A DNA stretch of 6,898 nt from a virus (lineage: Duplodnaviria > Heunggongvirae > Uroviricota > Caudoviricetes), in the IMG/VR virus record IMGVR_UViG_3300029656_000038, positions 1-6,898 of that record. One strand, given 5' to 3'. The notes beneath the pieces were generated by a model. That model saw only the letters and a program-made list of their open reading frames with translations, ran no database searches and was not told the origin of the DNA. The position numbers and the translations under genes are program-made. Below are positions 1 to 6,898 of the stretch, piece after piece; within the stretch, counting starts at the first letter, position 1, and the number at the start of each line of letters is the position of its first letter.

Positions 1-5
1 CACGA

Positions 6-38
6 ACCGATCTCCATCGATGTTACTCACCGATCTCC
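6..38. repeat. 10-bp direct repeat ACCGATCTCC (6-15 and 29-38) flanking the gene H stop codon
   Basis: Exact 10/10 match read directly from the sequence. It coincides with the point where similarity to P2 H ends. Confidence 0.5.
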
Positions 39-355
39 TTCACGGTAATACGCAGCGTTCCCGCATCATCGTACAGGCCAAGCTCACGCATCCAGAAACC
101 GCCCACCTCCGGCGGAATAACCAGCTCTGCGATAATATAATTACTGTTTCGTTTGTCCTGGCTGATTTTATTCAGCGCATGTCGCCAGACTTTATGGATA
201 AGCCCGGTCTGTCCGGCATCCGGGACAGGCAATTTACCACCGCCATCCCCGACGGCCATCGTGGTAATGTTGACCTTCCGCCCTCCCGGCGTGGTTGCCG
301 CTGCCAGCTTTGCTGCACCGGCAGTGGTGATAACGGTTCTGAATTTTGTGCTCAT
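23..355 (-). CDS. H: Tail fibre protein gpH, N-terminal 110-aa fragment; appears truncated relative to the ~670-aa P2 protein
   Basis: Translation starts MSTKFRTVITTAGAAKLAAAT..., which I recognise as the conserved N-terminus of P2 gpH. The ORF ends at a TAA at 23-25 after ...GTLRITVKEIGE; as I recall P2 H, it continues past GTL for several hundred residues. Sits immediately downstream of gene I, as in P2. Confidence 0.75.
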   Translation of the reverse strand: MSTKFRTVITTAGAAKLAAATTPGGRKVNITTMAVGDGGGKLPVPDAGQTGLIHKVWRHALNKISQDKRNSNYIIAELVIPPEVGGFWMRELGLYDDAGTLRITVKEIGE

Positions 356-365
356 TATTCCTCAC

Positions 366-896
366 TTATCCGGGGTAAACCGTAATTACATCGCCGTCAT
401 AAGCCACACCACCGGCGAACAGGTAGCCGGGAATGTCCCGGGTAATGTTCAGACCAATAAGGTGACGGCTTGCAGGTTTGGCATCAGCAATCAGCCGTTC
501 CATTTCCTGATACATTGCCTCTGTGATACCGCTTTCCAGTACACCAATATCAAGGCGGAAGGTGCCGGGCGGGTCACTGTTTTCCCACCACTCCGTCACG
601 TTGATGAGATAGCCGAGCGGCTCCACCACACGCCGGATTGCGCCGATAGTGCCTTTATGACAGTGGATGAAATAGGCATCGCGGATAACGGCGCGTTTTG
701 TCGCTTCCGGCCACTTTTCATCCCACCTGTCGACCGAAAACGCCCACGCCAGCCACGGCAGCAAATTTGCCGGGCAGGTGTCCGGGTTCCACAGCTCACG
801 AATCCTGACCGGCGTTTTTTCAATTTCCGCACAGGCTTTTGCGGCAGCAACTTCAAGCGGTGATGAGCCGGTCGGCAGCAGTCGCGAATCACTCAT
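366..896 (-). CDS. I: Baseplate assembly protein gpI
   Basis: 176-aa ORF (MSDSRLLPTGSSPLEVAAAKACAEIEK...) matching P2 gpI in sequence as recalled and in length; overlaps the gene J stop by 8 bp. Confidence 0.9.
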   Translation of the reverse strand: MSDSRLLPTGSSPLEVAAAKACAEIEKTPVRIRELWNPDTCPANLLPWLAWAFSVDRWDEKWPEATKRAVIRDAYFIHCHKGTIGAIRRVVEPLGYLINVTEWWENSDPPGTFRLDIGVLESGITEAMYQEMERLIADAKPASRHLIGLNITRDIPGYLFAGGVAYDGDVITVYPG

Positions 897-1797
897 CCGA
901 GCCTCCGGTCACGACGCGGTATTCGGTGCAGAAAGACGCCTGCGTACTGTTGAGCACGATGTCGGCCAGTGGTGCGGCCAGCTCGACACGCTGCACGCCT
1001 TCCACATGCAAAGCGGCATAAATGGCAGACAGACGGATGTCGCGCCCCAGCCGGTGCTGTGCCGTGATGTACGCTTCCAGTTTTTTCACGGCAGCAGCGC
1101 GGATGGGTTCGCTTTCGGGACCAGGGTAAAGGTAAAGCGTGGCGTTTATCTGGTATTCAACGATGGCGGCAGACTGCACGGTCACGCGGTCGGCCACCGG
1201 CCTGACGTCCTCACCATTAAGGGCGTTACGCACCACGGCCAGCAGGTCTTCGGATGCCACACCGTTATTTTCACGTGACAGCACAGAGATGGTGACGCAG
1301 GCCGGAGACGGACTGGTGACAGAGATATCCGCGACGCGCCCGTCGGCACTGCGACCATGATACTGATAGGCACCCACCGACCCGGCGACGCTTAAGCCCT
1401 CAAACGCCTGCTGAATACGCAGACGATAATCGGTGTCAGACTCCATCACTGCCGGTGTCGGCGGGATAGTCGAATCATCTGCCGGGGTGATAATCAGGCG
1501 CGTGGTGTTGTAATTGGCACCAATCACATCAAGGTCATTACCCGCGGCACAGGCCAGCATCACCGCCCGTGCGGCCTCATTCACACGCTGACGCCAGATA
1601 AGCTCACGATAAGCATTTTCCTCCAGCAGTTTGACGAGAGGCTCGGATTCCAGCGTCAGGGTACGGGCGACCGCCTCCTGCTGGTCTTCCGGGTAAAGGG
1701 AAATCAGTGTCGCCTTGCGTTCGGCAAGAATGGTTTCAAAGTCCAGCTCCTCGACCACATCCGGTGCAGGTAGCTGGTTCAGGTCGATAATCGGCAT
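889..1797 (-). CDS. J: Baseplate assembly protein gpJ
   Basis: 302-aa ORF (MPIIDLNQLPAPDVVEELDFETILAERK...) matching P2 gpJ in sequence and length; follows W as in P2. Confidence 0.9.
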   Translation of the reverse strand: MPIIDLNQLPAPDVVEELDFETILAERKATLISLYPEDQQEAVARTLTLESEPLVKLLEENAYRELIWRQRVNEAARAVMLACAAGNDLDVIGANYNTTRLIITPADDSTIPPTPAVMESDTDYRLRIQQAFEGLSVAGSVGAYQYHGRSADGRVADISVTSPSPACVTISVLSRENNGVASEDLLAVVRNALNGEDVRPVADRVTVQSAAIVEYQINATLYLYPGPESEPIRAAAVKKLEAYITAQHRLGRDIRLSAIYAALHVEGVQRVELAAPLADIVLNSTQASFCTEYRVVTGGSDE

Positions 1798-1801
1798 GGT
1801 T

Positions 1802-2149
1802 TCAACTCACAGGGATGGTTAACGAAAGTGGCTGGCCGGTGTCGTTGTGCTGGCCGGTTAACGTAACTGTCATTCGCCCGTCAAAACTGCGCTCAGTGGT
1901 GACGGATGACAGGGTGACGCGGGGTTCCCATTTCAGCACCGCCATGTAACAGGCGACCTTAATCTGCAACTCAAGCGCCGGGGTCTGCGGCTGGTCAATC
2001 ATTGACGCCAGCAACGAGCCGTAATCACGACGCATCACCCGTGAGCCGACCGGTGTGCGCAGGATATCGCCGATACTCTGGCTGATATGCTCAAGGTCAG
2101 TGACAGTCAGGCCATCACTGCGATTCATTCCGAGATAACGCGCTGTCAT
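1802..2149 (-). CDS. W: Baseplate wedge protein gpW (T4 gp25-like)
   Basis: 115-aa ORF (MTARYLGMNRSDGLTVTDLEHISQSIGDIL...) matching P2 gpW; overlaps the V stop by 4 bp. Confidence 0.9.
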   Translation of the reverse strand: MTARYLGMNRSDGLTVTDLEHISQSIGDILRTPVGSRVMRRDYGSLLASMIDQPQTPALELQIKVACYMAVLKWEPRVTLSSVTTERSFDGRMTVTLTGQHNDTGQPLSLTIPVS

Positions 2150-2781
2150 AGAGGGCTCCCGGTTGTGCCGCCGCTGTCGCCGGGGTGTTTATGGGTATGC
2201 AGTACCTTACCGTTTGATGAGAGTTCACCGCCGGTGTGTTCAATGTTGCCGCGCATCGTCCCGCCCTTCTGCACTTCCAGCGTGCCGGTAATCAGCCTGT
2301 TGGTGCAGACCACCTCCGGTGTGTCCAGGGTGACGCGGGTTGATGCTTTCACCATGACCACCGGCACCGTGGCAGTAACAGAATCAGAAGCCGTCACGCT
2401 GGCCGTTTTAATTCCGCTTACCGTGAGTGCACTGGTTTCGGGTTCATACTCAATCACCGCCCCGTCAGGGAAACGGATATGCAGGGCATCCGCCGACGCA
2501 GACGGCGCGGGGTTATCGCCGGAATAAATCCCCGGCAGAACAAACGCCGTGTCAAGTTCACCGCCCACGGCCAGAATCAGCACCTGTTCCCCCACGGACG
2601 GTGCCCACCATGTGCGCGAACGTCCGGCGCGATGGGTCAGCCACTGCAGCCAGTCGGTACACATGCCGCCGGTCTGCACACGGCAGCGACCGGCGTTAAG
2701 GTCGGTTTCGACGATAATGCCGGTGCGGATCATGTTGCGCAGTGCGCGCGCGAGTTCCTGAATATTTGCGAGAGTGTTCAT
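2146..2781 (-). CDS. V: Baseplate central spike protein gpV
   Basis: 211-aa ORF (MNTLANIQELARALRNMIRTGIIVETDLNAGRCRVQTGG...) matching P2 gpV in sequence and length. Confidence 0.9.
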   Translation of the reverse strand: MNTLANIQELARALRNMIRTGIIVETDLNAGRCRVQTGGMCTDWLQWLTHRAGRSRTWWAPSVGEQVLILAVGGELDTAFVLPGIYSGDNPAPSASADALHIRFPDGAVIEYEPETSALTVSGIKTASVTASDSVTATVPVVMVKASTRVTLDTPEVVCTNRLITGTLEVQKGGTMRGNIEHTGGELSSNGKVLHTHKHPGDSGGTTGSPL

Positions 2782-2793
2782 AACGGGAAGGAT

Positions 2794-2815
2794 GCCGCCG
2801 GGTCATACCGGCGGC
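2794..2815 (-). promoter_or_regulatory. GC-rich stem-loop in the S-V intergenic region (8-bp stem GCCGCCGG/CCGGCGGC, 6-nt loop), 12 nt upstream of the V start codon
   Basis: Perfect inverted repeat read directly from the sequence at 2794-2801 and 2808-2815. It lies in the only sizeable intergenic gap (2782-2847) of the block, where the P2 late promoter for the V operon is expected. No U-tract follows, so it is not a canonical intrinsic terminator. Confidence 0.3.
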
Positions 2816-2847
2816 AATGTGACGATGAGGTGTCAGGAATGGCACAA

Positions 2848-3300
2848 CTAACGGTCGAGGTGAGCCAGGATAATCTCTTCAATCATCTGCACATCCTCAC
2901 CGGTAAAGCCGAGCAGAGGACGCGCCGGATAATCAATTTTCTTACCGTCCTTCCGGGTTTCTTCCGACAGACCGAACTGATGCACACTGGCTATTTTCGG
3001 TGACTTCCCGCCGTAAAACTCCATTGATGCCTGTTCAGGGCTGGCGCGGATATGCAAAAAACGACTGGTGATAAGTTTCGCAAACATTTTTCGTTTAACG
3101 CGACCGGTCTTTTTTCTGGCGCTCTGCTGCTGGCGTGGTGCGTAGGGTGTGCCGTCCGGGGCTTTCTGTGCCATCACCCGGCGTTGCTGACTCTGACGCA
3201 GACGTTTCGCCAGTTCGGCGCTCAGTCGCCGACGCCCTGACGGTGACAGCGATTCAATCAGTCCGGTCAGCCGGTCTTCAAAACGCTTAAACTCATTCAT
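2848..3300 (-). CDS. S: Tail completion protein gpS
   Basis: 150-aa ORF (MNEFKRFEDRLTGLIESLSPSGRRRLSAELAKRLRQ...) matching P2 gpS; overlaps the R stop by 8 bp. Confidence 0.9.
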   Translation of the reverse strand: MNEFKRFEDRLTGLIESLSPSGRRRLSAELAKRLRQSQQRRVMAQKAPDGTPYAPRQQQSARKKTGRVKRKMFAKLITSRFLHIRASPEQASMEFYGGKSPKIASVHQFGLSEETRKDGKKIDYPARPLLGFTGEDVQMIEEIILAHLDR

Positions 3301-3760
3301 CCCACTTGCTCACCAGTTCGCCATTGATATAAAGCTCCATCGGGCGGGTGACCGGCTCCGGCGGCGGAGGTTCCGGGATATTCTTCACATGCAGTGCGCC
3401 GTCAACCTCACTGACCAGCGTGCGCTCGGTCAGCATCAGACTGATACTGATATCAAAGCTGCTGTCATTGTTGATGTCTGCATAAAACGTGAAGCCCTTT
3501 TTCTGGCCTGCGTCGGTGGTCATTATGTCGGGCTGATTTTCCCGCAGCCACGCCAGCACCGGCACGATGAGCAGGTCAAAATCACCGGTAAAATCGGTCA
3601 CAATGACATTGAGCGTGTAACGCTTTTCGAATGACAGCGACGTCGCCAGTGTGGAGGCAATACTCCCGTTATCCACGAATATCCGCAGCATCTCGGGGCT
3701 TGTTTTCAGCACCGTGACGGCATCAGTCAGCGCCCTGCGCAGGCTGTCGGGTTTGAGCAT
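3293..3760 (-). CDS. R: Tail completion protein gpR
   Basis: 155-aa ORF (MLKPDSLRRALTDAVTVLKTSPEMLRIFVDNG...) matching P2 gpR in sequence and length. Confidence 0.9.
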   Translation of the reverse strand: MLKPDSLRRALTDAVTVLKTSPEMLRIFVDNGSIASTLATSLSFEKRYTLNVIVTDFTGDFDLLIVPVLAWLRENQPDIMTTDAGQKKGFTFYADINNDSSFDISISLMLTERTLVSEVDGALHVKNIPEPPPPEPVTRPMELYINGELVSKWDE

Positions 3761-4013
3761 CGGTTTCGTCCTGACAGTGTTTAATCATTTTTACCAAGCT
3801 GGCACAGCGTGCCAGCGCGTTCTCAAGCTGCCGGATATCGGCACTTAAATCGCCGTTCGTCTCCGGGTCACTGCCCGGCATCGGGCAAAGGCTCACTTTC
3901 GGGCAGGCGTTGTGGACAATCACTGGCGTCGGCGCAGGCCGGGCGCTGGTGCAACCGGCGCACAGCATCAGGCAGGCCAGCGCCGTACCAGCGGCGAAAA
4001 TCTTCGTTTTCAT
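3723..4013 (-). CDS. lysC: LysC, Rz1-like outer-membrane lipoprotein spanin, nested out of frame in the 3' part of lysB
   Basis: 96-aa ORF (MKTKIFAAGTALACLMLCAGCTSARPAPTPVIVHN...) with a signal peptide, a lipobox-like LCAGC and a Pro-rich mature part; embedded in lysB in another frame, the typical Rz/Rz1 arrangement, matching P2 LysC. Confidence 0.85.
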   Translation of the reverse strand: MKTKIFAAGTALACLMLCAGCTSARPAPTPVIVHNACPKVSLCPMPGSDPETNGDLSADIRQLENALARCASLVKMIKHCQDETDAQTRQPAQGAD

Positions 4014-4293
4014 TCAGTAACCTCGCGATGGTTTTCTCGCGCTGTGCTTCACGCTTCGCGGCGTTCTCCAGTTCCTGACGCAGTGCCACCTGCGCCAGCT
4101 CGTTTTTGTCTGCTCTGGTGAGGGCAACATGAAGCTGATTTTTCAGCATGGTGATGGTCGTCTGCTGCCCGCTGGCGACGCTGTTCGCCCTGTCCAGTGA
4201 GGTGCGCAGGCTGGCATTTTCATGCTTCACCAGAAACAGCCCCGGCACCGCCAGTGATAACAACACAACCAGCACCGTCATCAGCTTTGACAT
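3868..4293 (-). CDS. lysB: LysB, Rz-like inner-membrane spanin
   Basis: 141-aa ORF (MSKLMTVLVVLLSLAVPGLFLVKHENASLRTSLDRANS...) with an N-terminal transmembrane segment followed by a charged, helix-prone region; matches P2 LysB. Confidence 0.9.
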   Translation of the reverse strand: MSKLMTVLVVLLSLAVPGLFLVKHENASLRTSLDRANSVASGQQTTITMLKNQLHVALTRADKNELAQVALRQELENAAKREAQREKTIARLLNENEDFRRWYGAGLPDAVRRLHQRPACADASDCPQRLPESEPLPDAGQ

Positions 4294-4706
4294 GGTTCCC
4301 GCCCCTCAAAACGCTGACGGCAGGCCGTACGTATCAGCCGGAAAAACAGCGACGCCACAAGATAAATCAGCGCAGTAAAAATCCACCCGGCAGCGACCAG
4401 CGAGATAAACGTCGCCACCATCACTACCAGAGCCACTGACCGCCTGCGCCACGGCACCGGCTGCAAAAACAGCGCCGTGACAATCTTCACGGCCAGCGAT
4501 TCCGGCGGCAGCTCCCGCCCGTAGCGTTCCAGCACATACTCAGTGGCATACACGCCGACACCACCGGCAACCACACAGATAACCGTCGCCAGAATTGCCC
4601 AGGCAGCGACAAAACTGACAGCCACGCTCTGCGGGTAAATCAGGGACAGTGCCAGCATCAGCGCCAGCGACACGTTCAGCATCAGTGAAATGGATAATTT
4701 CTTCAT
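4281..4706 (-). CDS. lysA: LysA, multi-pass membrane protein that modulates lysis timing
   Basis: 141-aa hydrophobic ORF (MKKLSISLMLNVSLALMLALSLIYPQSVAVSFVAAWAILATVICVVAGG...) matching P2 LysA; lies between K and lysB as in P2. Confidence 0.88.
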   Translation of the reverse strand: MKKLSISLMLNVSLALMLALSLIYPQSVAVSFVAAWAILATVICVVAGGVGVYATEYVLERYGRELPPESLAVKIVTALFLQPVPWRRRSVALVVMVATFISLVAAGWIFTALIYLVASLFFRLIRTACRQRFEGREPCQS

Positions 4707-4720
4707 GGTGTTTACTCCGT

Positions 4721-5218
4721 TTAAGCCGGTACGCCGCCAGCGGTACGCCAGACGGTGACCAGTTTTTCCAGTGAATGCTCACGCTGACCGTAACCGGCAC
4801 CCGGCAGGGACGCCCAGATATTGCGACAGCGTGAAATGGCGCGCTCAATGCGTCCCGCCCGGATGTCATCCAGTGCACCGCGTTCGCGGATCAACTGAAT
4901 GGCGAGTCTGTCCTGTGATAACGGACTGAAATCCGGCAGGGCAAGCTGTTTGCGGTAGTGCGGCCAGAACAGGTAAAGCTGCTGATAGCGACCGGAGGCC
5001 GTGGATTTTTCACCGCGACGGTTAAACACCTTCGCCGGTCGGCCATGTGCGAACGGGTGGTCACTGTAGTCGGTGAAGATTTCCGGCTTCCCGTCCAGTC
5101 CGGTGACTATCACGTCATAGCCCCGGTTTTTCGTCAGCGGGTGATTCGCCGTCCCTTCGGACACGGCCAGCATGTCGAGAAAGGCCGCGATATTCTGATG
5201 CGTGTTAATAACCGGCAT
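4721..5218 (-). CDS. K: Endolysin gpK (phage lysozyme)
   Basis: 165-aa ORF (MPVINTHQNIAAFLDMLAVSEGTANHPLTKNRGYDVIVTG...) matching P2 gpK; its start overlaps the gene Y stop. Confidence 0.9.
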   Translation of the reverse strand: MPVINTHQNIAAFLDMLAVSEGTANHPLTKNRGYDVIVTGLDGKPEIFTDYSDHPFAHGRPAKVFNRRGEKSTASGRYQQLYLFWPHYRKQLALPDFSPLSQDRLAIQLIRERGALDDIRAGRIERAISRCRNIWASLPGAGYGQREHSLEKLVTVWRTAGGVPA

Positions 5219-5499
5219 TACTGTTTCCCCCTGCCCTTAAAGCGGCGCTGAATGGCAATCTCAATCACCTGATAACCGGCGATACCCAGCATGGAGCCGA
5301 TGCCGCACACCGCAGGCAGTGACAGGTCAGGAAACTGCACCAGAACAACACCGGCAACCATCGAGACAAAACCACCGAGCAACATGCGCCCGATAAACAG
5401 ACGCGGGGTGATGGGTTCACCACCGGCAAGCACCTTGCCGACAACAATCAGCACTCCAATCATGAAAAGCGACAGGACGCTTTTTTCTTCTGCTGTCAT
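5218..5499 (-). CDS. Y: Holin gpY
   Basis: 93-aa ORF (MTAEEKSVLSLFMIGVLIVVGKVLAGGEPITPRLFIG...) with hydrophobic transmembrane segments and a basic C-terminus (RRFKGRGKQ); matches P2 gpY. Confidence 0.9.
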   Translation of the reverse strand: MTAEEKSVLSLFMIGVLIVVGKVLAGGEPITPRLFIGRMLLGGFVSMVAGVVLVQFPDLSLPAVCGIGSMLGIAGYQVIEIAIQRRFKGRGKQ

Positions 5500-5502
5500 G
5501 CG

Positions 5503-5706
5503 TTACTCCCACAGATTGACAGTTTCAGCCACGGGCGCGGTCTGAACGTCGGGCAGTTCGACGGCGGTGCCGTGCGGCAGCACCGCACCCAGTTCAGCCA
5601 GTCCCGGATTTGCGGCGAGCACGGTCTCAACCACGCCCTCAGTGCGCCCGTAATACCGGACACAAATGGCGTCGAGCGTGTCGCCCTGTAGCGCAAAGGT
5701 CTTCAT
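5503..5706 (-). CDS. X: Tail protein gpX
   Basis: 67-aa protein MKTFALQGDTLDAICVRYYGRTEGVVETVLAANPGLAELGAVLPHG... matching P2 gpX. I take the ATG at 5706 as the start rather than the ORF-track start at 5775, because that ATG overlaps the gene L TGA stop (ATGA) and gives the P2 length. Confidence 0.88.
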   Translation of the reverse strand: MKTFALQGDTLDAICVRYYGRTEGVVETVLAANPGLAELGAVLPHGTAVELPDVQTAPVAETVNLWE

Positions 5707-6215
5707 CAGATTTGACTCACGATGCAGCGCGGCTTGTCCTGGATACGCGCCACCGCCCAGCGCATATCCCGCCACAGTTCATCAATGGTGCTGTCAATGC
5801 TGTCGGCCTTCTTGTCGCCTTTCGCACTGGCATCCACGCCGCGGTAACGCTCATAAAGCGACGCGGTCGCCATCGCACACACGGCGCGCTCGTAGTAAAA
5901 AACTTTGATGCTTTCACCGTCGATGTCGTCCGCCGGAACGTCCGCCAGACGCGTAAAACCGGCGGCAATTTTCTGTTCGCGGTACTCGTACAGCTCCGCA
6001 TTCGTCTCCGCCATGCCTGACTTGATGGCCTCACGCAGACGGGCGGGGGCGACGGTCTGCTCAAGGCGCATACGTTCCCGGACGCGCTTCGGGTCGATAT
6101 CGGGAAAAAAGAACGTGTTTTTAATCACCGGCTCGTCGCCTGCCGGTTGCGGGATGACCACCGTACCCTCACCGGACACGGGAGCCTCCTTTCGCGGAAT
6201 AATCAGCGTCATCAT
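5706..6215 (-). CDS. L: Head completion/stabilisation protein gpL
   Basis: 169-aa protein MMTLIIPRKEAPVSGEGTVVIPQPAGDEPVIKNTFFFPDID... matching P2 gpL. The ATG at 6215 is preceded by a GAGGT Shine-Dalgarno; the upstream extension to 6275 would begin at GTG with no ribosome-binding site, so I reject it. Confidence 0.88.
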   Translation of the reverse strand: MMTLIIPRKEAPVSGEGTVVIPQPAGDEPVIKNTFFFPDIDPKRVRERMRLEQTVAPARLREAIKSGMAETNAELYEYREQKIAAGFTRLADVPADDIDGESIKVFYYERAVCAMATASLYERYRGVDASAKGDKKADSIDSTIDELWRDMRWAVARIQDKPRCIVSQI

Positions 6216-6314
6216 GACTACCTCTGAAAAGTCGGGCGGTGGACGCCGGTGCAGTGTCAGGTGATTCACCCTCACTGACCGGCGTGCCGCCCTGGCGCGG
6301 GGCGCATTCGGTTG

Positions 6315-6825
6315 TTAACTGGCTTTCTTTTTCGGGCGTCCACGTTTTGCCGGTGTCACGCTCCGGGTCTTACGCGGGGTACGGGTGGCCGCTTTGGGCT
6401 GCGGCTCCGGCTTCGGTTTCAGCTCCCGCTCCAGTCGTTCAATCTCTTTTTTGACGCCTGCCTGACAGTCGAGCTGTGTCGCACGTTGCAGGTGAGCCAG
6501 CGCACCGGCGGCATCACCACCGTCACGCAGAAACAGACCGGTGATTTTGTGCAGCTTTGCGCGCACTTCATCAGGCATGTCAGCAGCGGCAGTCAGTTCA
6601 AGGGTCTCCGTCAGCAGGCGGGTATCCACAGACTCACCGGCCGCGTGGGCGCGCATGGCCGCAAGCGCTACCTCCTCGGTGAACATGTACGGCGGGGTGC
6701 GGCGGTGTTTACCCGGCATGGTCAGACCGTACTTCAGGGCATAACGGGCAATCTCCAGCGCACCGGCAATATCGCCGGTATCCAGACGCCACAGCATGAC
6801 CGTCATCAGAATGTCATCCTGTGCG
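6315..6825 (-). pseudogene. M: Terminase small (endonuclease) subunit gpM, C-terminal ~169 codons only; 5' end interrupted by a mobile-element insertion
   Basis: Translation AQDDILMTVMLWRLDTGDIAGALEIARYALKYGLTMPGKHRRTPPYMF...KRGRPKKKAS matches the C-terminal two-thirds of P2 gpM (about 247 aa as I recall). Upstream of codon A (6822-6824) the reading frame runs into IS10-end sequence; the native N-terminal ~75 codons are absent from the window. Confidence 0.85.
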
Positions 6826-6898
6826 CTGATGAATCCCCTAATGATTTTGGTAAAAATCATTAAGTTAAGGTGGATACACATCTTGTCATATGATCAAA
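6826..6898 (+). mobile_element. IS10 (Tn10) outside end, partial; the element extends beyond the right edge of the window
   Basis: Sequence CTGATGAATCCCCTAATGATTTTGGTAAAAATCATTAAGTTAAGGTGGATACACATCTTGTCATATGATCAAA matches the IS10 outside-end terminal sequence as I remember it. It begins exactly where the gpM homology stops. Confidence 0.8.

What the first reader, a model, noticed from the sequence alone, without database searches (positions are those of the whole stretch)
1..60. Tail-fibre gene H ends after 110 codons at an abrupt junction marked by a 10-bp direct repeat
The H ORF has the conserved P2 gpH N-terminus, but as I recall P2 H it should continue beyond GTL for several hundred residues. 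Here it reads GTLRITVKEIGE then TAA at 23-25. The junction (about 50-55) sits next to an exact 10-bp direct repeat ACCGATCTCC (6-15, 29-38). A new minus-strand ATG at 17-15 (MEIGS...) reads out of the window. This could be a deletion or rearrangement scar that removed the receptor-binding part of the fibre, or the junction with a different downstream module. Either way the host-range determinant differs from P2.
Basis: partly seen in the sequence, partly recalled or inferred. Interest (0 to 1): 0.5.

Follow-up and report, generated by a model that had tools for sequence, protein, structure and literature searches.

The report
ISEc12 insertion splits prophage tail-fibre gene
The tail-fibre gene of a P2-like E. 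coli prophage stops early because a common insertion sequence (ISEc12, IS21 family) has jumped into it, and the 10-bp repeat is that element's pair of transposase-binding sites, so this is ordinary prophage decay.

Summary
The sequence facts are all correct. There is a 110-codon H ORF (355-23, minus strand), an abrupt junction at 54/55, an exact 10-bp repeat at 6-15 and 29-38, and an ATG at 17-15.

The interpretation needs correcting. Window 1-54 is the last 54 bp of the right terminal inverted repeat of ISEc12, a 2581-bp IS21-family element. It is 100% identical to copies in over 2000 E. coli records. The two repeat copies lie 23 bp apart, which is the R1/R2 IstA-binding architecture described for IS21 ends. 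They are not a deletion scar.

H keeps codons 1-100. Codon 101 straddles the junction, and nine IS-encoded codons and TAA follow.

An IMG/VR contig carries the reciprocal junction: distal H (residue 100 onward), then G and the tail genes, 100% identical to the intact relative, abutting the ISEc12 left end. GCGTT flanks both junctions but occurs once in the intact gene, so it is a 5-bp target-site duplication. The receptor-binding part was displaced, not deleted, at least at the time of insertion.

The window is part of a gut-metagenome contig that breaks in repeats at both ends. The other end is IS10 inside terminase gene M.

Unresolved: whether the two H halves still flank a single IS copy.

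Known kind of event; low interest.

The parts
1..54 (+). Outermost 54 bp of the right terminal inverted repeat (IRR) of ISEc12 (IS21 family). The body of the element, with istA and istB on the + strand, lies to the left, off the window. The terminal CA is at 53-54.
   Evidence: 100% identical to L002 4001-4054, which lies 32-85 nt downstream of the annotated istB of an 'IS21-like element ISEc12'. 2267 E. coli records match at 99% or better. The parent contig L003 continues 72 nt further, to the istB stop codon (one search compared).
29..38 (+). Core (ACCGATCTCC, reverse complement GGAGATCGGT) of the tip-proximal 23-bp repeat R1 of the IRR. Inferred to be an IstA-binding site.
   Evidence: Exact repeat, 0.01 expected by chance. 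The 23-bp register aligns with L1-L4 of the left end. IS21 TIRs consist of direct repeats R1/R2 spaced 23 bp apart and bound by the IstA HTH domains (PMC10122671).
6..15 (+). Core of the second 23-bp repeat, R2, of the IRR.
   Evidence: Same as for R1. Start-to-start spacing is 23 bp.
55..59 (.). [quoted passage not shown]
   Evidence: The window reads ...AATACGCA|GCGTTCCCGC. L011 reads ...CAATTAGCGTT|TGCGTATTTT at the left IS end. Intact H (L001) has ...CAATTAGCGTTCCCGC with a single GCGTT. ISEc12 makes 5-bp duplications (PMC10711316; L002 ATATG).
23..355 (-). Truncated tail-fibre gene H'. Codons 1-100 (355-56) come from H. Codon 101 (CTG, Leu; 55-53) straddles the junction. Codons 102-110 (RITVKEIGE) and the TAA stop (25-23) are read from the IS end.
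   Evidence: The identical gene on L003 has a Pfam PF12571 Phage_tail_fib hit.
15..17 (-). It is not a gene start.
   Evidence: In the identical IS copy of L002 it opens MEIGSCHFHRTVFKLPSLISFGQRRLYFPH*, 30 codons, antisense to the end of istB.
366..6275 (-). Intact P2-like late genes upstream of H, in reading order L, X, Y, K, lysA, lysB/C, R, S, V, W, J, I.
   Evidence: ORFs. Pfam families on the identical contig L003. Zero mismatches to L001 in this span, because the only mismatch is at window 193. Annotation of L001.
6315..6826 (-). 3' remnant of terminase gene M (residues 79-247), cut by a second insertion sequence.
   Evidence: Homology to L001 ends at 6826. The join is at M residue 79.
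6826..6898 (+). End of IS10 (annotated as ISVsa5 family, IS4-like), with its transposase gene pointing out of the window.
   Evidence: 73/73 identical to about 1970 E. coli records. In L005 it lies 35 nt upstream of an 'IS4-like element ISVsa5 family transposase' next to tetC/tet(B). RNA-OUT (RF00240, 98.8 bits) is found on the parent contig L003 at 9-78.

Best explanation
A copy of ISEc12 transposed into gene H of a P2-like prophage, within the 5-bp target that spans codons 99-101. ISEc12 is a 2581-bp IS21-family element encoding the IstA DDE transposase and the IstB AAA+ helper.

Shown: Window 1-54 is the tip of the element's right inverted repeat, ending in the conserved CA at 53-54. The exact 10-bp direct repeat is the conserved core of the two 23-bp-spaced sub-repeats, R1 and R2. 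The staggered cut duplicated GCGTT, so one copy follows the right IS end (window 55-59) and the other precedes the left IS end (seen in contig L011). H translation therefore runs from codon 100 into the IS end, adds LRITVKEIGE and stops. This gives a 110-aa baseplate-proximal stub. The remaining 582 codons of H, and gene G, are displaced to the far side of the IS, at least 2.6 kb away.

Inferred: IstA tetramers bind R1 and R2 to synapse the ends, as published for IS21.

Inferred: The prophage cannot make fibred, infectious particles. Together with an IS10 insertion in terminase gene M at the other end of the window, it is a recently inactivated prophage. The rest of the 6.8 kb differs by one base from intact copies in O25:H4 genomes.

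Inferred: The window starts and stops where it does because the short-read metagenome assembly broke in these two multicopy elements.
For: IS identity: window 1-54 is 100% identical to the 3' end of annotated ISEc12 copies. The parent contig L003 extends to the istB stop.

Element anatomy: the 2581-bp element has TG...CA ends, about 67-bp imperfect terminal inverted repeats, and GGAGATC(G/A)(G/C)T cores in 23-bp register at both ends.

Literature: IS21 TIRs consist of R1/R2 direct repeats separated by 23 bp. Both are required by IstA. The ends carry a terminal CA and make 5-bp duplications (PMC10122671). ISEc12 makes a 5-bp duplication in ST131 tssM (PMC10711316).

Breakpoint: homology to intact H begins at 54/55. 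P2 gpH and the 681-aa relative read on as GTLIAVANM....

Reciprocal junction: L011 holds a complete ISEc12 whose left end abuts H residues 100-681, G and the tail genes, 6006/6006 identical to L001, with GCGTT at the join.

Recurrence: the exact 110-aa product is on 7 contigs from at least two ENA assemblies, and also in JGI/IMG.

Precedent: independent ISEc12 insertions at other H codons in complete genomes keep both H halves and G (L002 and L010).
Against: Only one junction is in the window, and the parent contig stops 126 nt into the IS. Linkage of H' to distal H across one IS copy is therefore not observed.

In L011 the right end of the IS is joined to F-like plasmid DNA, not to H'.

None of 5426 complete E. 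coli genomes has this junction. Neither did the JGI metagenome or GTDB-representative scans.

IstA binding to these particular repeats is inferred from IS21-family work and has not been tested for ISEc12.
Confidence: 0.9

Rival explanations
1. The IS insertion happened as described, but the two halves of H are no longer separated by a single IS copy. An F-like plasmid carrying ISEc12 may be integrated between them. This could arise by IS21-type tandem-(IS)2 cointegration or by homologous recombination between IS copies. Alternatively, IS-IS recombination may have inverted or deleted the intervening DNA. The window would then be one border of a larger rearrangement.
For: In L011 the ISEc12 copy that abuts distal H is joined at its other end to 2363 bp of F-like plasmid DNA (DUF4942, MobC and HTH genes; 2637 of the 2661 matching places are on plasmids). 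That IS-plasmid junction is in no complete genome. E. coli genomes that have the element carry a median of 3 and up to 14 copies of this IS end, on chromosomes and plasmids. General knowledge: IS21 is known for cointegrate formation from tandem copies.
Against: A 2.6-kb multicopy repeat cannot be phased by short-read metagenome assembly, so L011 may simply be a wrong path through the repeat. All seven contigs carrying H' break in the IS. Both scenarios contain the same four IS-flank junctions, so the data cannot tell them apart. Two other ISEc12-in-H loci in complete genomes are simple insertions.
Confidence: 0.2
2. Assembly artefact: the assembler wrongly attached 54 bp of IS sequence to an intact H gene.
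For: The window is a metagenome contig whose ends lie in repeats.
Against: The join is at the exact IS terminus (…CA). It recurs in 7 contigs from independent assemblies. The reciprocal junction, with a matching 5-bp duplication, exists in a separate data set. A chimera would not create a target-site duplication.
Confidence: 0.02
3. A natural short or alternative H module, either a recombination boundary to a different fibre or an invertible (Gin/Cin-type) segment at codon 101.
For: P2-like fibres are mosaic. The intact relative diverges from P2 after about residue 465. Draft contigs L006/L007 end at this same nucleotide.
Against: The sequence beyond the junction is an IS end, not fibre-coding DNA. 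Homologues read straight through codon 101. No invertase gene lies between H and G in the intact relative.
Confidence: 0.01

Closest known systems
ISEc12 (IS21 family) insertion in tssM of E. coli ST131 clade C (PMC10711316)
   Same: Same element. It causes the same kind of event, a gene split by a simple insertion with a 5-bp target-site duplication, and is detectable in short-read data as junction sequences at contig ends. The window's prophage is nearly identical to prophages of O25:H4 genomes.
   Different: The target is different: prophage tail-fibre gene H, with duplication GCGTT rather than ACTGC. This insertion is absent from all 5426 complete genomes searched, so it is not a clade marker seen there.
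IS21 / IS5376 terminal inverted repeat architecture (L1-L2, R1-R2; Spinola-Amilibia et al. 2023, PMC10122671)
   Same: Terminal CA, two direct repeats per end spaced 23 bp apart, and a 5-bp duplication. The window shows CA at 53-54 and repeat cores at 29-38 and 6-15.
   Different: The ISEc12 repeat sequence itself (GGAGATCGGT core) is specific to this element. Its left end shows four units in 23-bp register rather than two. IstA binding has not been tested for ISEc12.
ISEc12 insertions in P2-like H genes of E. coli MLI106K3 (L002) and EC05 (L010)
   Same: Same 2581-bp element (0-1 mismatch between these two copies), in the same orientation (istAB convergent with H). H is annotated as two pseudogene pieces, with G retained.
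   Different: The sites differ: H is cut after nt 1393 (about codon 464) in L002 and after nt 858 (codon 286) in L010. The duplications are ATATG and CTTAAC. Here the cut is at codon 100-101.
Bacteriophage P2 gpH (NP_046775, 669 aa)
   Same: Residues 1-101 are 96/101 identical, and the gene sits in the V-W-J-I-H-G operon position.
   Different: Only the first 100 codons remain in this ORF. The intact relative's H (681 aa) is about 98% identical to P2 gpH to roughly residue 465 and diverges in the C-terminal region.

Membership tests
IS21-family insertion sequence (ISEc12) | Element termini 5'-TG...CA-3' within imperfect terminal inverted repeats | tested here: met
   The window ends ...GGTAATACGCA at 54. 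IRL is TGCGTATTTTCATGAAAGGAGATCAC and IRR (reverse complement) is TGCGTATTACCGTGAAGGAGATCGGT. Inverted-repeat arms are 1474-1541 and 3988-4054 of L002.
IS21-family insertion sequence (ISEc12) | Multiple direct sub-repeats in each end (L1/L2, R1/R2) spaced 23 bp apart | tested here: met
   Cores are at window 29-38 and 6-15, with 23-bp spacing and 0.01 expected by chance. The register is shared with the left end. The definition comes from PMC10122671.
IS21-family insertion sequence (ISEc12) | Two consecutive genes, istA (DDE transposase) and istB (AAA+ helper) | tested here: met
   These are not inside the window. The parent contig L003 reaches the istB stop codon. Identical ends in L002 and L010 follow annotated istA and istB. 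L011, which holds the reciprocal junction, has the full 2581-bp element at 99.92% identity and a 249-aa IstB ORF.
IS21-family insertion sequence (ISEc12) | Short target-site duplication (5 bp for ISEc12) | tested here: met
   GCGTT follows the IRR in the window and precedes the IRL in L011, and occurs once in intact H. Caveat: the two junctions come from different data sets.
IS21-family insertion sequence (ISEc12) | IstA binds the sub-repeats and IstB delivers the target DNA | not testable with these tools
   Inferred from IS5376 biochemistry and cryo-EM.
P2 gpH tail fibre (Peduovirus) | N-terminal baseplate-proximal domain homologous to gpH (Pfam PF12571) | tested here: met
   96/101 identical to P2 gpH. 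PF12571 hit on the identical gene.
P2 gpH tail fibre (Peduovirus) | Position after V-W-J-I in the late operon | tested here: met
P2 gpH tail fibre (Peduovirus) | Full-length shaft plus C-terminal receptor-binding region, followed by assembly gene G, in one reading frame | tested here: not met
   The ORF stops at codon 110. It is therefore an interrupted gene (pseudogene), not a functional member. The distal part is found only across an IS.
Invertible tail-fibre segment (Gin/Cin/Pin type) | Invertase gene and alternative fibre C-termini next to the constant N-terminal part | tested here: not met
   The DNA beyond the junction is an IS end. The intact relative has H-G with no invertase.

The most novel reading that the evidence does not exclude
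Contig L011 is a true join, and an F-like plasmid is integrated into prophage gene H, flanked by two ISEc12 copies. That would be an IS21-type cointegrate, effectively an Hfr-like strain in the human gut. The window would be one border of the integrated plasmid rather than of a simple IS insertion.
Probability: 0.15. Interest if true: 0.35.

Novelty: already known. Interest (0 to 1): 0.08.

Why it matters
It matters little beyond annotation. The 110-codon ORF should be called an IS-interrupted H pseudogene, and the 10-bp repeat should be assigned to the ISEc12 end.

With IS10 in terminase gene M, it marks a very recently disabled P2-like prophage: 1 difference in 6773 bp from intact copies. 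The two junctions (ISEc12/H with GCGTT, and IS10/M) could serve as lineage markers for this strain in gut metagenomes.

The case also shows that a short repeat next to an abrupt loss of homology at a contig end is typical of an IS terminus.

Tried and rejected
- Exact junction searches: a 34-nt pattern found nothing in JGI metagenome contigs, GTDB representative genomes or IMG/VR. A 101-nt BLAST of the junction found no complete E. coli genome covering 80% or more of it.
- Reciprocal junction: the pattern found nothing in JGI metagenome contigs but did hit IMG/VR.
- Reciprocal IS10/M junction: not found in IMG/VR.
- Hot-spot idea: contigs L006/L007 end at the same nucleotide in another H allele. 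I did not adopt this, because one search found no ISEc12 at this site in any allele of complete genomes, and a de Bruijn branch at a nearby polymorphic position explains it as well.
- Minus-strand ATG at 17-15 as a gene: rejected, 30 codons.
- Natural divergence of H at codon 101: rejected. Homologues read through, and divergence from P2 starts at about residue 465.
- Not used: structure prediction and the large protein-database searches, because the DNA evidence was decisive.

Full report
**Observation**

The window carries P2-like late genes on the minus strand: M', L, X, Y, K, lysA, lysB/C, R, S, V, W, J, I, H'. The ORF 355-23 has 110 codons, ends ...DDAGTLRITVKEIGE, and stops with TAA read from 25-23.

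Its first 101 residues are 96/101 identical to P2 gpH, which is 669 aa. They are 100/101 identical to the 681-aa H of the closest intact prophage, L001 from E. coli O25:H4 strain 18044. Both full-length proteins continue GTLIAVANMAESYK.

ACCGATCTCC occurs exactly at 6-15 and 29-38 and nowhere else in the window. 0.01 matches are expected by chance, and 0 of 200 shuffles had two.

**What lies beyond the junction**

blastn aligns window 54-6826 to L001 with one mismatch and no gaps. Window 1-54 does not match the prophage. It is 100% identical to L002 4001-4054, the stretch 32-85 nt downstream of istB of an annotated 'IS21-like element ISEc12'. The same 54 bp occur at 99% or better in 2267 E. 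coli records, at up to 14 places per genome, on chromosomes and plasmids.

The window is 100% identical to part of a 7020-nt human-gut metagenome contig, L003 from ENA ERZ918314. That contig runs 72 nt further and reaches the istB stop codon.

In L002 the element is 2581 bp. It starts TGCGTATT, ends AATACGCA, and is flanked by a 5-bp duplication, ATATG. In the window the IS tip, CA, is at 53-54.

**The 10-bp repeat**

Read from the tip inward, the right end is TGCGTATT, then ACCGTGAAGGAGATCGGTGAGTA, then ACATCGATGGAGATCGGTTCGTG. These are two 23-bp units sharing the core GGAGATCGGT. The left end has four units in the same 23-bp register, with cores GGAGATCACT, CGAGATCGGG, CAGATCGCTG and GGAGATCACT.

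This is the published architecture of IS21-family ends. The TIRs are made of direct repeats L1/L2 and R1/R2 separated by 23 bp. Both repeats are required for integration, each is contacted by the HTH domains of an IstA subunit in the tetrameric synaptic complex, and the ends carry a terminal CA and make 5-bp duplications (PMC10122671).

The repeat is therefore real and functional. It belongs to the IS and does not mark the breakpoint. Binding by ISEc12 IstA itself is inferred, not shown.

**The breakpoint and the missing part of H**

Codon 100 (ACG, Thr) is window 58-56. Codon 101 (55-53) straddles the join and happens to remain Leu (CTG, against CTA in L001). Nine IS-encoded codons and a stop follow.

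A pattern for the predicted reciprocal junction hit one IMG/VR contig, L011. L011 contains a complete ISEc12 at 2364-4944, with 2 mismatches to the L002 copy. Its left end abuts DNA that is 6006/6006 identical to L001: H from residue 100 to 681, G, a cargo gene, FI, FII, E and the start of T. ORFs the size of the rest of T, U and D follow.

The join there reads ...CAATTAGCGTT|TGCGTATTTT. The window reads ...AATACGCA|GCGTTCCCGC. Intact H has a single GCGTT. This is a 5-bp target-site duplication, as reported for ISEc12 in ST131 tssM (PMC10711316).

The event was therefore a transposition into H, not a deletion. The receptor-binding part and G were pushed to the other side of the IS.

Two other complete genomes have independent ISEc12 insertions elsewhere in P2-like H genes, with both halves and G retained. 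L002 is cut after nt 1393 (about codon 464), and L010 after nt 858 (codon 286, duplication CTTAAC).

**Why the window ends here, and the other end**

The exact 110-aa product is on 7 contigs, five of them 5-10 kb long, from at least two ENA assemblies and JGI/IMG. L003 stops 126 nt into ISEc12, as expected for a k=127 assembly breaking in a repeat.

The right end of the window (6826-6898) is the end of IS10. It is annotated as ISVsa5 family and lies next to tetC/tet(B) in L005. It is inserted in terminase gene M at residue 78/79. RNA-OUT is detected on L003, oriented towards the phage genes.

The contig is thus a 6.8-kb prophage piece bounded by two different multicopy IS elements.

**Consequences (inferred)**

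H' retains only the baseplate-proximal 100 residues. In P2, H and G are in the V operon, so an IS with convergent istAB is expected to be polar on distal H and G. With M also split, the prophage should be unable to package DNA or make fibred particles.

The single difference from L001 in 6773 nt is E55K inside H'. Both insertions are therefore very recent.

**What remains open**

On its right side, the L011 IS is joined to 2363 bp of F-like plasmid DNA rather than to H'. No complete genome has that join.

One reading is that the assembler took a wrong path through the 2.6-kb repeat, which I favour. The other is that a plasmid is integrated between two ISEc12 copies in H. Both readings contain the same four junctions, so only long reads or PCR can decide.

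No complete E. coli genome of 5426 carries the H/ISEc12 junction.

**Comparison and verdict**

This is a copy of a known element (ISEc12, IS21 family), behaving as described for its family and inserted in a known gene (P2-type H). The alternatives are excluded or very unlikely: a natural short H, a module swap at codon 101, an invertible segment, or a new gene starting at the ATG 17-15.

Novelty: already known kind. Interest is low. The only mildly interesting reading left open is the plasmid cointegrate.

Noticed in passing
window 6826-6898 and 6315-6881 (minus strand): The right end of the window is an IS10 (ISVsa5-type) end inserted in terminase gene M at residue 78/79. A chimeric 188-aa ORF starts 19 codons inside IS10 and continues as M 79-247. 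RNA-OUT, and so the pOUT promoter, points from IS10 into M'-L-X-Y-K. This could give Ogr-independent transcription of the lysis and tail genes (speculative).
   Followed up: partly
window 193 (H codon 55): The only difference from the intact O25:H4 prophage over 6773 nt is GAA to AAA (E55K), inside the truncated H. This fits very recent inactivation.
   Followed up: yes
L011 1-2363: In the IMG/VR contig that holds the reciprocal junction, the other side of the ISEc12 copy is F-like plasmid DNA (DUF4942, MobC and HTH genes). No complete E. coli genome has this IS-plasmid join. It is either a chimeric path through the repeat or a plasmid cointegrate in gene H.
   Followed up: partly
L006 / L007 1191-1492 (NCBI drafts GCA_054787075.1 and GCA_054787035.1): 1492-nt contigs with a different H allele end exactly 2 nt after H codon 100, the same nucleotide as the IS junction here. 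The cause is unknown. It may be an assembly-graph branch at a polymorphic base or another insertion at the same site.
   Followed up: partly
L011 4919-6694: The displaced distal H forms a 591-codon ORF that starts at a GTG inside the ISEc12 left end (VISFHENTQ, then H 100-681). Whether it is ever expressed is unknown.
   Followed up: no
L002 1-18 and 7985-9028; L010 7922-8707; window 2782-2847: Related P2-like prophages carry cargo genes at the usual hotspots. L002 has a Shedu nuclease gene beyond G and a hypothetical gene between S and V, and L010 has a hypothetical gene between S and V. The window has only a 66-nt S-V spacer with no cargo gene.
   Followed up: no
L001 4257-6302 compared with P2 H (L009 7235-9244): The intact relative's fibre is about 98% identical to P2 gpH up to roughly residue 465 and then diverges strongly (52% identity with large gaps near the C-terminus). 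The natural mosaic boundary is therefore there, not at codon 101.
   Followed up: yes
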